IMG/VR virus record: IMGVR_UViG_2802429234_000005
Location: 1 to 52,974 of that record
DNA length: 52,974 nt
DNA from: a virus
Taxonomy: Duplodnaviria; Heunggongvirae; Uroviricota; Caudoviricetes
Strand: one strand, 5' to 3'
Part shown: positions 15,001 to 18,000 of the stretch, one piece after another
Layout of the letters: every line of letters begins with the position of its first letter
Numbering within the stretch: the stretch's first letter is position 1
Position numbers: made by a program

Positions 15001-18000
15001 TAAAGGTGTGAATCATTAAGTAGGCGGGTAGTGATACTCTAAGAGCGGTGAGTAAGCTCTCAGAATCGTTATCCTTATCGGCAAAAGAGTTGGCGCTCTT
15101 TTGCCGATTAAATGATCTGGTTTTCACGAAATTTCCTCCACAAGATCCCTGCGACTTCATGGCTAACTTTGAAGTTAACAGCAATTTCTTTTGGGGTTTT
15201 GATCATCCCTTTCTCTTGCGGATCAACCAGAAACCAAGCGGCAAATTCGTTTGCTTGCCATTCTGCGTCCTCTCTAAAGCCATGATTGGAGGATGTCTGT
15301 GAGAAAGCAAATTCAGGCGTAACATCCGCATGAAGAATTAAATGCCCTAATTCGTGAGCCAGAGTAAAACGATCACGTGGTACGCCGTTTGCTGCATTAA
15401 TGTAAGTGTCTTTACGTACGTATAACTCGCCTATTGCAGGTCTTGCCTTAGCATACTCATGCGGCATTTCATGAATTTCACAAATTTCCATCGAAATTGC
15501 ACCGGTATCGTTTAGCCTGTCTAATAACCTAACAATGTCAATTGAAGGATCCGATGTCGCTGGGAGATACTGCCTTGCTTTTTGGCGCGCGGCGGCAGCA
15601 ACTTTCCATATGGTTTGAGGAGCAATAAAATTTACTTTATTACACAGTAATCGCTTTTGTTTCATCTTTGACTTTGACCTTACATTTTTTTTATCTTCTC
15701 AAGCCAGTCATTTGCTTCACTTTCTGGAAGCTCTTTATACTTACGCGCAAAGGTGACGAACAATTCTCGGTGCTTGTCAGAAGTATTCTTAAAATCTTCT
15801 TTATGAACTGGTTGAGATACGTCCACAAGACATTGAAAATCATCTCTGCTGATGACTGTGTCTGCATAAACGTTCATGAATTTGTCTACAAAATCAGCAG
15901 ATATTGAACGCTTACCTAATTCAATTGCAGAAAGTTGAGCGACACTCACACCAAGTTTTTCTGCCATGTCTTTCAATATCTGATCTTTATCAATACGGAT
16001 TTTCCGTAAGAACCTACCAAGAGCTGTAACTTGCATTGTGACCTCCTAATCAAGGGAGGTAGTCTTTTACTACCATTGAAGATACATTAAACCATTATCA
16101 GATAATTAGTCAACAAAAATTGTAGAATGGATTTGTGTGACCTGATTTTGGTTAAAGAGAACATCGCATGTTATTGCAATCTATTAATTTAAAAATTCTA
16201 GATTTATCGATAGGTTGCGAGCGAATTTTGGTGCAAAGATAAAATGTTGGAAACAGCTAAAAGGTTAAGTAGAATGGCTGCGGGTGCTTGAGGCTGTCTG
16301 CCTCGGGCATGCCACTGTAAGGCAGACAGAGAAAAGCCCCAGTTAACATTACGCGTCCGGCAAGACGCTTAACATTAATCTGAGGCCAATTTCATGCTTT
16401 GCACATGTAGGTTAGCCTCTTACGCGCCGGAAGGCAAGGAGAAGCAGGCTATGAAGCAGCAAAAGGCGATGTTAATCGCCCTGATCGTCATCTGTTTAAC
16501 CGTCATAGTGACGGCACTGGTAACGAGGAAAGACCTCTGCGAGGTACGAATCCGAACCGGCCAGACGGAGGTCGCTGTCTTCACAGCTTACGAATCTGAG
16601 GAGTAAGAGACTCGGCGGGGAGAAATCCCCGCCACCTCTGATGTGTCAGGTATCCTCAACGCACCCGCACTTAACCCGCTTCGGCGGGTTTTGTTTTTCA
16701 TGAATAAGGGATTAATAATTTTAACTGAAATTATATTGCCTTGTTGTCCGAATGGTTAGTTAATTTTCGATATTGTTGTATTTGTCGTATTTGTCGTATT
16801 TGTTTTTATTTTCGGCTTTATCTTTTGCGATTGCTTCGAAATAAAGATTAATTAGAATTCATCCGTTTTGAGTAGCGCGCAGGGAGAAGATGGATGGAAC
16901 CCTGAAAAGGGGAGAGCTATTTATTTGGAAGGATTCTGAAGATGAAAATCGAAGAATTGCATGAATTGTTTAGTGAAAATGGCCTCTATGCTGTGCGCGT
17001 TGAGAATGGAACTATTGTCAGTCACTGCCGCATTAAATGTTTACAATCCCAGCAAAGGAAGAGCGGTGCTGTGTTAATTTATTTTGTGGATGGACTTATG
17101 GTGGACGGTTTTATTTTACGTGAAGATGAATTTGTCACATCATTACAGGCTTTGAAAGAGATAGGACTTAAGGCTGGATTTTTTGCTTTTGAGACTGAGT
17201 GAATTCATCTACAATTCAGCACAGGGTTGACCCCCTGCTGAGTAACACCGTGCCACCGGAGAAAACCGATGGCACATATACAACTGGTCAAACAAACTTC
17301 TTCTGGTTTACTTCTCCCGGCGACGCCGGAGAGTTGCGATTTTCTGCATCAAATCAAAATAGGCGAGTGGATACACGCTGACTTTAAGCGTATTCGTAAC
17401 TACGCATTCCACAAGCGTTTTTTCAAACTCCTGCAACTCGGATTCGATTACTGGACTCCGGTCGGTGGGGCGATCACGCCTCGCGAACGAGAACTGGTGT
17501 CCGGTTTCGTTGATTACCTGTGCGAATCAGTAGGTCGGGAACATACGCCAGCTCTGAGCGAAGCCGCAGAGCAATATCTGAATACAGTTGCGACACGCAG
17601 AACCCAGGATACGGCATTACTCAAGTCATTTGACGCCTTCCGTGAATGGGTAACCATTCAGGCCGGATTTTACACTGAGCATTTTTATCCGGACGGTAAC
17701 CGCGGGCGTCGGGCGAAATCCATCGCGTTTGCGAATATGGACGAAACCGAGTTTCAGCAGGTTTATAAATCTGTACTGAATGTGCTGTGGAACTGGATTC
17801 TGTTCCGTAAATTTTCCTCTCCGGAACAAGTCGAAAATGTGGCTGCACAGCTGCTGGAGTTTGCGTGATGGCAGATTTACGTAAAGCGGCGCGGGGCCAG
17901 ATGTGTCAGGTCAGAATTCCTGGCTACTGCAATCACAATCCCGAAACTTCCGTGCTGGCGCATTACAGACTGGCGGGGACGTGTGGAACAGCGACAAAGC

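What the first reader, a model, noticed from the sequence alone, without database searches (positions are those of the whole stretch)
16250..16710. hok/mok type I toxin locus with folded 5-prime and 3-prime RNA elements
The 51-aa Hok/Gef-family toxin is preceded in frame by a Mok-like leader (70-aa ORF), a 5-prime hairpin (CTGTCTGCC...GGCAGACAG, 16297..16330) and a 3-prime terminator hairpin, matching the architecture of hok/sok-type loci. An antisense Sok-like RNA would be expected opposite the mok start (about 16330..16420, minus strand) but is not resolved by eye. Sitting beside the HTH-peptidase cassette, it suggests an accessory island.
Basis: partly seen in the sequence, partly recalled or inferred. 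Interest (0 to 1): 0.45.

Follow-up and report, generated by a model that had tools for sequence, protein, structure and literature searches.

The report
Intact prophage hok/mok/sok toxin-antitoxin module
This is an ordinary, sequence-intact copy of the well-known hok/sok RNA-controlled killer-gene cassette (the hokD/hokW type found in most E. coli genomes), carried in the accessory-gene region of a Rac-like lambdoid prophage.

Summary
Window 16247..16698 holds a complete hok/mok/sok type I toxin-antitoxin locus.

- **Toxin:** 51-aa Hok, Pfam HOK_GEF 82.9 bits, 100% identical to RefSeq HokD WP_000813255.1.
- **mok:** in-frame 70-codon ORF.
- **Leader:** Rfam RF01794 hit at 113.6 bits (gathering 59).
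- **Ends:** promoter-like site, then terminator.

Folding the sequence reproduces each step of the published R1 hok pathway:
- a metastable 5' hairpin;
- 5'/3' tac-fbi closure, with the mok Shine-Dalgarno sequestered by ucb;
- after removal of the 3' end, tac/ucb plus SD/dcb refolding.

Its promoter is TTGCCT-17-TAACCT, the same -10 hexamer that was mutated in the hokW-sokW study, and it ends in a long hairpin plus U-tract.

The locus is 92-96% identical to annotated hokW/hokD loci. 4723 of 5426 complete E. coli genomes have a match, so it is already known.

One side observation may be worth following. The 17-nt Sok 5' tail / target loop is hypervariable among near-identical relatives (pi 0.30, against 0.01 at hok third-codon positions and 0.05 in the UTRs), yet the target hairpin is preserved in every variant.

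The parts
16247..16275 (+). hok mRNA promoter-like site: -35 TTGGAA (16247-16252), 17-nt spacer, -10 TAGAAT (16270-16275)
   Evidence: Consensus scan. The -10 TAGAAT is nearly invariant in 66 relatives while the -35 varies (TTGGAA/TTGGCG/TTTGCG). The Rfam model starts 7 nt downstream at 16282. The transcription start is inferred, not measured.
16282..16698 (+). Full-length hok mRNA (predicted). The 5' end comes from Rfam model position 1. The 3' end is either at the terminator T-run (16698) or trimmed to just after fbi (~16668).
   Evidence: MFE -176.8 kcal/mol, z = -7.2.
16282..16293 (+). tac (translational activator element), GGGUGCUUGAGG
   Evidence: Pairs with fbi in the full-length fold, with ucb in the truncated fold, and with 16301-16313 in nascent folds. 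Invariant in 66 relatives.
16294..16329 (+). Its 5' arm and loop also provide the metastable partner of tac (16301-16313).
   Evidence: Compensatory A-U to G-C change at 16296/16326 (alignment columns 50/82): AU 55, GC 8 sequences.
16334..16340 (+). ucb / anti-SD box (AAGCCCC)
   Evidence: Pairs with the mok SD (16382-16386) in the full-length fold and with tac in the truncated fold. 100% paired with tac in 66 relatives.
16332..16402 (-). Sok-like antisense RNA gene, 71 nt: variable single-stranded 5' tail (16402..~16386), long hairpin, then GGGGCUUUU end
   Evidence: Maps exactly onto the sokW misc_RNA annotated in 933W. Fold -31.2 kcal/mol, z = -5.1. The hairpin is conserved, with compensatory changes, in relatives. 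The transcript itself was not observed here.
16409..16437 (-). Sok promoter: -35 TTGCCT (16437..16432), 17-nt spacer, -10 TAACCT (16414..16409)
   Evidence: Hexamers identical to 933W/Sp5 sokW. The -10 is the element destroyed in the 'pro-less' mutant, as deduced from primers YO-421/422 in PMC8621323. Relatives vary only towards consensus (TTGACC, TAATCT). The simple consensus scan missed it because the -10 matches only 3 of 6 positions.
16382..16385 (+). mok Shine-Dalgarno GAGG, 8 nt before the mok AUG
   Evidence: Sequence. Sequestered by ucb in the full-length fold and paired with dcb in the truncated fold. Invariant in 66 relatives.
16394..16606 (+). mok reading frame, 70 codons, in frame with hok and sharing its stop codon
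   Evidence: The AUG is invariant in 66 relatives. Its frame relative to hok varies across the family.
16386..16412 (+). Sok-target hairpin upper stem and loop (sokT), equal to the complement of the Sok 5' tail; a hypervariable cassette
   Evidence: pi 0.25-0.30 against 0.011 at hok third-codon positions. 18 haplotypes in the 66 sequences of alignment A2. Folding the slightly wider mok SD-to-dcb region gave 19 distinct sequences, and every one still forms the hairpin.
16415..16419 (+). dcb (downstream complementary box) GCCUC, directly abutting the Sok -10
   Evidence: Pairs with the mok SD in the truncated fold. 5 of 5 pairs kept in all 66 relatives.
16451..16606 (+). hok toxin gene, 51 aa plus TAA. 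SD AGGAG at 16437-16441.
   Evidence: Pfam HOK_GEF 82.9 bits. PHROG 251 'MokW-like host killing' 113.5 bits. 100% identical to WP_000813255.1 HokD. 48/51 identical to HokW.
16614..16633 (+). G+C-rich hairpin GGCGGGG-AGAAAU-CCCCGCC, the predicted protective 3' stem-loop of the processed (truncated) mRNA
   Evidence: 99.8% paired in relatives, with GU/AU/GC variation at one pair. The role is inferred from the R1 model (PMC9841398).
16654..16666 (+). fbi (fold-back inhibition element) CCUCAACGCACCC
   Evidence: 12 pairs with tac and one bulged C. Lies roughly 44-55 nt after the stop codon in all 10 loci compared, with the caveat that the L006 duplex also spans an upstream segment. Co-varies with tac between subfamilies. 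100% paired in 66 relatives.
16673..16698 (+). Intrinsic terminator: AACCCGC-TTCG-GCGGGTT, then TTGTTTTT
   Evidence: Conserved in most relatives, but absent from 933W, where homology ends after fbi.

Best explanation
Window 16247..16698 is a complete hok/mok/sok type I toxin-antitoxin module of the hokD/hokW subfamily, carried as a moron in the nin-like region of a Rac-like lambdoid prophage.

Proposed mechanism. The steps marked S are shown at sequence or in-silico level here. The steps marked I are inferred from the R1 hok/sok and Sp5 hokW-sokW literature.

1. A constitutive promoter (TTGGAA-17-TAGAAT) starts the hok mRNA at about 16282 (S for the site, I for its activity).
2. While the RNA is nascent, the 5' tac box is held in a metastable hairpin with 16301-16313, which prevents premature activation (S, in silico).
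3. The finished transcript closes on itself: tac (16282-16293) pairs with fbi (16654-16666), and ucb (16334-16340) sequesters the mok Shine-Dalgarno. The stable full-length mRNA is then neither translated nor bound by Sok (S for the pairing, I for the consequence).
4. Slow 3' exonucleolytic trimming back to the hairpin at 16614-16633 removes fbi (I).
5. The 5' end then refolds into tac/ucb, and the mok SD pairs with dcb at the base of a target hairpin that presents the mok start region in its loop (S, in silico).
6. The 71-nt Sok RNA is made from TTGCCT-17-TAACCT on the minus strand (16402..16332). It pairs through its single-stranded 5' tail with that loop, blocks mok translation and hence the coupled hok translation, and the duplex is cut by RNase III (I).
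7. When Sok synthesis stops, through loss of the element, a transcription block or prophage induction, the labile Sok decays. mok and hok are then translated from the processed mRNA pool, and the 51-aa Hok inserts into the inner membrane and depolarises it (I).

The most likely physiological role, by analogy with hokW-sokW, is helping host killing and lysis on prophage induction and/or stabilising the prophage. That role is not resolved here.
For: - Toxin: Pfam HOK_GEF 82.9 bits. Identical to RefSeq HokD WP_000813255.1. 48/51 identical to HokW.
- Leader: Rfam RF01794 113.6 bits against a gathering score of 59, full length 1-157.
- Folds of the full-length, truncated and nascent RNAs reproduce tac/fbi with ucb/SD, then tac/ucb with SD/dcb, and the metastable hairpin, as defined in PMC9841398.
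- The tac/fbi duplex is -21.5 kcal/mol, reached by 2 of 1000 shuffles. fbi sits roughly 44-55 nt after the stop codon in the 10 loci compared. The pairing co-varies: GGGUGC/GCACCC here, GGCGC/GCGCC in R1-type loci. R1-type tac scores only -13.4 on hokW-type 3' UTRs.
- In 66 distinct relatives, tac/fbi, tac/ucb and SD/dcb are 100% paired. Overall, 94% of cells are paired against 33-43% for the slid controls. There are 10 pairs with double-sided changes, a count that 0 of 500 shuffles reach.
- Sok: the coordinates coincide with the annotated sokW. The promoter hexamers are identical to those of sokW, and the -10 is the element whose mutation unmasks HokW toxicity. Hairpin plus U-tract fold with z = -5.1.
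- The hokW-sokW system has been shown experimentally to be a type I TA: HokW is toxic and located in the inner membrane, and sokW neutralises it.
Against: - There are no expression data for this locus. The transcription starts, the 3' processing and the RNA half-lives are all inferred.
- The Sok -10 (TAACCT) matches the sigma-70 consensus at only 3 of 6 positions, and the generic scan did not call it.
- The structure used for pair counting was derived from the window sequence itself, which inflates 'cells paired' relative to the slid controls. The relatives are close (94% mean column identity), so most pairs never vary.
- Chromosomal hok loci of E. coli were reported to be unable to mediate post-segregational killing, and not to be activated by rifampicin (Pedersen and Gerdes, as summarised in bioRxiv 10.1101/2025.08.07.668861).
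- Because mok is in frame here, mok-initiated translation would yield a 70-aa extended Hok whose activity is unknown.
Confidence: 0.9

Rival explanations
1. The locus is intact in sequence but physiologically silent. It would be a selfish or hitch-hiking passenger that never releases Hok under natural conditions, as has been proposed for chromosomal hok loci.
For: Chromosomal hokA, hokB and hokC loci could not mediate post-segregational killing and were not rifampicin-activated, as summarised. Deleting hokW-sokW has no growth phenotype without induction. Some database records label homologues 'RelF inactive antibacterial toxin protein'.
Against: All regulatory elements are preserved without a single disabling change. 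tac, fbi, ucb, dcb, both SDs, both AUGs and both Sok promoter hexamers are conserved across 66 distinct relatives while neighbouring positions vary. That pattern indicates purifying selection on the whole switch. The closest tested relative is active on prophage induction.
Confidence: 0.12
2. The main role is superinfection exclusion or abortive infection. An incoming lytic phage shuts off host transcription, Sok decays, and Hok kills the cell before the phage completes its cycle, which protects the lysogen population.
For: R1 hok/sok reduces T4 plating efficiency and plaque size (Pecota and Wood 1996, cited). hok genes are enriched about four-fold in prophages. The locus lies among other moron or exclusion-type genes (Ren-like protein, HTH/ImmA-IrrE pair).
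Against: The Hok survey found no enrichment of hok next to known defence systems. The only functional study of a prophage hok locus found that it helps the prophage's own release rather than blocking phages. Nothing in this sequence discriminates between the two roles.
Confidence: 0.25
3. The main role is prophage or segment maintenance (post-segregational killing). Cells that excise or delete the prophage lose Sok first and are killed by the stable hok mRNA.
For: This is the classical function of the family on plasmids. The 933W record annotates hokW as 'prophage maintenance'. The stable-mRNA / labile-antisense architecture is fully preserved.
Against: This has not been demonstrated for any prophage hok locus in the literature retrieved here. 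Chromosomal loci failed PSK tests. Many genomes carry several near-identical hok copies (median 2, up to 9), and their Sok RNAs might cross-protect if the 5' tails match.
Confidence: 0.3

Closest known systems
hokW-sokW of Stx2 phage 933W / Sakai prophage 5 (AF125520; PMC8621323)
   Same: Same subfamily. 92.1% DNA identity over 16264..16676 and Hok 48/51 identical. The tac, fbi, ucb, dcb and Sok promoter hexamers are identical, the Sok body is the same, and mok is in frame with 70 codons. Rfam scores 113.5 and 113.6 bits.
   Different: The Sok 5' tail / target loop differs at several positions (CCAATTTCATGCTTTGC here, CTCAATCCATGCTGAAC in 933W). The Hok C-terminus is TAYESEE here and VDYESEK in HokW. 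933W lacks the terminator hairpin after fbi, because homology ends there. The genomic position also differs: near the right end of 933W beside tail-fibre-region ORFs, against the nin-like region upstream of Q here.
hok/mok locus of Rac-type phages (e.g. MN652886, E. coli 442/2) and PGAP 'hokD' loci of E. coli prophages
   Same: Same gene order: hok, rem-like ORF, DUF1367/NinB-like, DUF1364/HNH, Q. 93% DNA identity. Same terminator. The Hok protein is identical to WP_000813255.1. 4723 of 5426 complete E. coli genomes carry a match.
   Different: The Rac 442/2 allele has a Sok promoter closer to consensus (TTGACC-18-TAATCT), and its 1-nt insertion puts mok in the +1 frame. The upstream neighbour differs: HTH/M78 here against hypothetical ORFs there.
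hok/sok (parB) of plasmid R1, the paradigm of the family; represented here by locus L006, whose Hok matches R1 Hok as I recall it (identity not checked against an R1 record)
   Same: Same architecture and the same order of elements. The Rfam leader model matches both (88.9 bits for L006). tac/fbi end-pairing lies at a broadly similar distance after the stop codon. There is a Tr 3' hairpin followed by fbi and then a terminator. The Sok promoter overlaps dcb and the hok SD region.
   Different: Hok is only about 44% identical. tac/fbi are GGCGC/GCGCC rather than GGGUGC/GCACCC. mok is in the +1 frame. It is plasmid-borne, with a demonstrated plasmid-stabilisation role.
relBE-hok fusions (the hokD/relF arrangement of the K-12 Qin prophage, from my own knowledge; seen here in L009)
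   Same: Closely related or identical Hok protein family. L057 and L061, two 98%-identical loci with a different upstream region that was not identified, retain the fbi box.
   Different: Those loci lack the tac, mok and sok leader. L009 has no Rfam leader hit, and L057/L061 have no tac. In L009 hok follows relE. The window locus has the complete autonomous regulatory apparatus.

Membership tests
[quoted passage not shown] | Small (~50 aa) Hok/Gef-family membrane toxin ORF | tested here: met
   HOK_GEF 82.9 bits against a cut-off of 22, profile positions 1-42 of 42. PHROG 251 113.5 bits. 100% identical to WP_000813255.1 HokD.
[quoted passage not shown] | Conserved structured hok mRNA 5' leader | tested here: met
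   RF01794 113.6 bits against a gathering score of 59, model positions 1-157 of 157, + strand at 16282..16456. The Rfam model named 'sok' is built on the hok-mRNA sense strand: it starts with tac and ends at the hok AUG.
[quoted passage not shown] | Overlapping mok reading frame with its own SD, starting ~57 nt upstream of the hok AUG and reading into the hok initiation region | tested here: met
   GAGG at 16382-16385, AUG at 16394, 70 codons. AUG and SD are invariant in 66 relatives. The same 57-58-nt offset is seen in 933W, Rac and R1-type loci.
[quoted passage not shown] | Long-range tac/fbi pairing of the mRNA 5' and 3' ends | tested here: met
   12 bp with one bulge in the MFE fold. -21.5 kcal/mol, reached by 2 of 1000 shuffles. 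Co-varies between subfamilies. 100% paired in 66 relatives.
[quoted passage not shown] | Conformational switch: ucb sequesters the mok SD in the full-length RNA; tac/ucb and SD/dcb form in the 3'-truncated RNA; metastable 5' hairpin in the nascent RNA | tested here: met
   All three states are the predicted MFE structures of the 417/387-nt, 355-nt and 29-54-nt RNAs. The tac/ucb and SD/dcb pairs are kept in all 66 relatives. This is in silico only.
[quoted passage not shown] | cis-encoded antisense Sok RNA gene with its own promoter, opposite the mok translation initiation region | tested here: met
   TTGCCT-17-TAACCT at 16437..16409 (-), identical to the functionally tested sokW promoter. The 71-nt RNA at 16402..16332 has a single-stranded tail, a hairpin and a U-tract, z = -5.1, and coincides with the annotated sokW. 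This is met at sequence level; the transcript itself could not be observed.
[quoted passage not shown] | Hok is toxic and Sok neutralises it | not testable with these tools
   Shown for HokW/sokW, which is 48/51 identical in Hok and has the same promoter (PMC8621323). Not tested for this allele.
[quoted passage not shown] | Differential RNA stability (stable hok mRNA, labile Sok) and slow 3' processing of the hok mRNA | not testable with these tools
   Only the substrate features are present: the fbi tail and the protective hairpin at 16614-16633. For hokW, smaller RNAs were seen but not assigned.

The most novel reading that the evidence does not exclude
The 17-27-nt stretch that forms the Sok 5' tail and its target loop (16386..16412) may be a hypervariable specificity cassette under diversifying selection. 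On this reading it would define Sok 'immunity types', so that the several near-identical prophage hok/sok modules co-resident in one E. coli genome are each controlled only by their own antisense RNA. Equivalently, an incoming prophage's Sok could not disarm a resident module.

For: pi is 0.30 in the tail, against 0.011 at hok third-codon positions and about 0.05 in the UTRs. There are 18 haplotypes among 66 sequences, and every variant preserves the target hairpin.

Not excluded: relaxed constraint on an unimportant Mok N-terminus combined with recombination between old alleles. Of the two same-genome pairs available, one shared the tail and one differed, so that test is inconclusive.
Probability: 0.35. 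Interest if true: 0.45.

Novelty: already known. Interest (0 to 1): 0.12.

Why it matters
The practical value is correct annotation. This is the complete, apparently functional form of the module: promoter, mok, sok, tac/fbi and terminator. It is not the leaderless relBE-hok form. Automatic annotation usually reports only the 51-aa 'hokD' CDS and omits mok, Sok and the RNA elements.

The window therefore carries two RNA-controlled killer modules, RalR/RalA and hok/sok, on one Rac-like prophage. That is relevant to prophage stability, to induction and lysis timing, and to possible phage exclusion in the host strain.

The hypervariable Sok recognition tail, if it proves to be functional, would offer a simple system for studying how paralogous antisense-controlled toxins avoid cross-talk.

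Tried and rejected
1. The generic sigma-70 scan found no minus-strand promoter. I did not take this as absence. The Sok -10 TAACCT matches the consensus at only 3 of 6 positions, and it is the element that was functionally mutated in sokW.

2. The Rfam 'sok' hit lies on the + strand. I rejected the reading that Sok is encoded on the + strand, because the model consensus begins with tac and ends at the hok AUG. It therefore models the hok leader, and Sok is its complement.

3. Pair counting of the upper target hairpin in a shared alignment register gave poor pairing (helix 4 at 79%). This is an artefact of hypervariability and register shifts. Folding each haplotype separately shows the hairpin is kept.

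4. Three plasmid hok loci (L009 relBE-hok; L010 and L011 beside IS or unrelated genes) lack the leader. I left them out of the RNA comparisons.

5. Reciprocal tac/fbi cross-matching is asymmetric. The hokW-type tac also scores well on R1-type 3' UTRs through G-U pairs, so only one direction supports coupled covariation.

6. The same-genome test of the anti-cross-talk idea had only two pairs, one with identical tails and one with different tails. It is inconclusive.

7. The large protein-database searches, structure prediction and fold search were deliberately not run. Family assignment of a 51-aa peptide identical to a named RefSeq protein did not need them.

8. The source organism was not determined. 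The best E. coli matches are 91-96% identical and mosaic.
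Full report
**Observation**

- A 51-aa ORF at 16451..16606 (stop included) is a Hok/Gef-family toxin: Pfam HOK_GEF 82.9 bits against a cut-off of 22.
- A 70-codon ORF starts at 16394 in the same frame and shares the stop codon.
- The inverted repeat CTGTCTGCC/GGCAGACAG lies at 16294..16302 and 16321..16329, a few bases from the coordinates given.
- An intrinsic terminator, stem 16673..16690 followed by a T-run, closes the locus.
- Rfam's RF01794 matches 16282..16456 on the + strand over its full length at 113.6 bits, against a gathering score of 59. 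The family is named 'sok', but its consensus begins with the hok mRNA 5' end and ends at the hok AUG. It therefore models the hok leader, and Sok is its complement.

**The antisense gene**

Phage 933W (AF125520) annotates mokW, hokW and a 71-nt sokW under a stretch that is 92.1% identical to window 16264..16676.
- Aligning the two places sokW at window 16402..16332 on the minus strand.
- Upstream on that strand lie TTGCCT (16437..16432), a 17-nt spacer and TAACCT (16414..16409). Both hexamers are identical to those in 933W.
- In the functional study of hokW-sokW, the 'promoter-less' construct was made with primers that replace exactly this -10. That construct unmasked HokW toxicity, which sokW supplied in trans partly reversed.
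- The generic promoter scan missed the site because the -10 matches the consensus at only 3 of 6 positions.
- The predicted RNA has a single-stranded 5' tail, a long interrupted hairpin and a GGGGCUUUU end: -31.2 kcal/mol, z = -5.1.

**RNA switch**

I took the definitions of tac/fbi, ucb (anti-SD), dcb, the metastable hairpin and the protective 3' stem-loop from the recent re-examination of R1 hok/Sok (PMC9841398). I then folded the window sequence in three forms.
- **Full length (to 16698 or to 16668):** the 5' end GGGUGCUUGAGG (16282-16293) pairs with CCUCAACGCACCC (16654-16666), and AGCCCC (ucb) pairs with the mok GAGG. The fold has z = -7.2.
- **Truncated after the G+C-rich hairpin at 16614-16633:** the 5' end instead pairs with ucb, and the mok SD pairs with GCCUC (dcb, 16415-16419). 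This forms the base of a hairpin that presents the mok start region.
- **Nascent (29-54 nt):** tac is held in a local hairpin with 16301-16313.

Together these are the published folding pathway, step by step.

**Comparative support**

The comparison used ten loci with a leader: the window, 933W, Rac 442/2, a hokD copy, and six R1-type plasmid loci. One of these (L006) encodes a Hok that matches R1 Hok as I recall it; I did not check it against an R1 record.
- Each locus's own 5' end finds its best partner downstream of its stop codon, roughly 44-55 nt after it (in L006 the reported duplex also spans an upstream segment).
- The two subfamilies differ in a coupled way: GGGUGC/GCACCC against GGCGC/GCGCC.
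- R1-type tac scores only background (-13.4 kcal/mol) on hokW-type 3' UTRs. The reverse direction is not discriminating because of G-U pairs.

A further 80 phage/prophage loci gave 66 distinct sequences.
- tac/fbi, tac/ucb and SD/dcb are paired in 100% of cells.
- Overall, 94% of cells are paired, against 33-43% when the partners are slid.
- Double-sided changes occur in the 5' stem, the Sok hairpin, the processed-end hairpin and the terminator. No shuffle out of 500 reaches that count.
- Caveats: the structure came from the window sequence, and the relatives are close, so most pairs are simply invariant.

**mok**

- 58 of the 66 relatives, and 933W, have the in-frame 70-codon form.
- Rac 442/2, one relative (L046) and the R1-type locus L006 have mok in the +1 frame.
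- Seven relatives have a 19-codon uORF that stops at the hok start.

What is conserved is the SD, the AUG and translation running into the hok initiation region. That fits a coupling role rather than a protein function.

**Context**

The window is a Rac-like lambdoid prophage.
- It carries an integrase, RalR/RalA, recT/recE, replication genes, a Ren-like protein, then hok, a rem-like ORF, a DUF1367/NinB-like gene, an HNH/DUF1364 gene, Q, two tRNAs, and lysis and structural genes.
- hok therefore sits in the mosaic nin-like region.
- The HTH_3 / ImmA-IrrE (M78) pair immediately upstream is found next to hokD in a few E. coli genomes, for example CFSAN029787. Most relatives lose homology left of about 16264, so the two are independent neighbours.

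**What it is, and novelty**

This is a member of a very well known family and subfamily. The Hok protein is identical to a named RefSeq protein, and 4723 of 5426 complete E. coli genomes have a DNA match, with a median of 2 and up to 9 copies. Enrichment of hok in prophages has been reported, and the nearest relative has been characterised experimentally. I rate it as already known.

The physiological role is not decided by sequence. The candidates are help with lysis on induction, prophage maintenance, and exclusion of other phages.

**Side observation**

Variability in the 66-sequence alignment peaks sharply at 16392-16401: 0.93 bit per column, against roughly 0-0.1 in the hok CDS.
- Nucleotide diversity is 0.30 in the Sok 5' tail, 0.011 at hok third-codon positions and about 0.05 in the UTRs.
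- There are 18 haplotypes in the 27-nt cassette. Folding the slightly wider mok SD-to-dcb region gave 19 distinct sequences, and all keep a target hairpin of about -12 to -15.5 kcal/mol, with one at -9.6. The Sok body is conserved.
- This looks like a recognition-specificity cassette.
- The recent Hok survey analysed only the coding sequence, and a review of TA cross-interactions does not treat it.
- Selecting the loci for at least 98% Hok identity depresses CDS diversity, so the UTR comparison (about six-fold) is the fairer one. Of the two same-genome pairs available, one shares the tail and one does not.

Noticed in passing
window 16386..16412 (and alignment A2 columns ~141-168): A hypervariable cassette at the Sok 5' tail, mok codons 1-6 and the target loop. 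pi is 0.30 in the tail, against 0.011 at hok third-codon positions and ~0.05 in the UTRs. There are 18 haplotypes in 66 otherwise near-identical prophage loci, and all keep the target hairpin. It may be a Sok specificity determinant.
   Followed up: partly
window 2544..2930: A second type I toxin-antitoxin module on the same prophage: RalA sRNA (Rfam RF02694, 179.8 bits, 2544..2722 +), overlapping the end of a 69-aa Lar/RalR-like ORF (2721..2930 -).
   Followed up: partly
window 15108..16036 (-): An HTH_3 regulator (118 aa) plus an ImmA/IrrE-type M78 metallopeptidase (185 aa), divergent from hok. The same pair sits beside hokD in E. coli CFSAN029787 but not in most relatives. Its function was not examined.
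   Followed up: partly
window 16773..16803: A 9-nt tandem repeat, TTGTCGTAT x 3.4 (95% matches), in the AT-rich spacer between the hok terminator and the rem-like ORF (16942..17202). Purpose unknown.
   Followed up: no
window 16589..16592: The Tyr47 codon UAC followed by G (a UACG motif) is invariant in 66 relatives. This is the TadA-type A-to-I editing context reported for hokB and, according to the Hok survey's introduction, for hokC, hokD and hokE. Editing would recode Tyr to Cys.
   Followed up: no
window 19045..19198 and 19849..19930: Two tRNAs downstream of Q, Thr(TGT) and Gly(TCC), are supported by both ARAGORN and Rfam. A third ARAGORN call, 'tRNA-Tyr (ata)', 82 nt, gets no Rfam tRNA hit even at E <= 0.1 and is probably spurious or degenerate.
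   Followed up: partly
loci L026, L036, L045, L049, L063, L078, L082 (alignment A2): In these relatives a 2-nt deletion in the cassette turns mok into a 19-codon uORF that ends at the hok start. A 1-nt insertion in the Sok -35 region (TTGACC variants: Rac 442/2 and L046) puts mok in the +1 frame. The frame of mok is therefore evolutionarily free.
   Followed up: yes
locus L003 (NZ_CP148543.1, 15.6-kb 'plasmid'): An identical HokD is encoded on a small circular record that otherwise carries lambdoid nin-region genes and the paa adhesin gene. It may be a phage fragment or an assembly artefact rather than a true plasmid.
   Followed up: no
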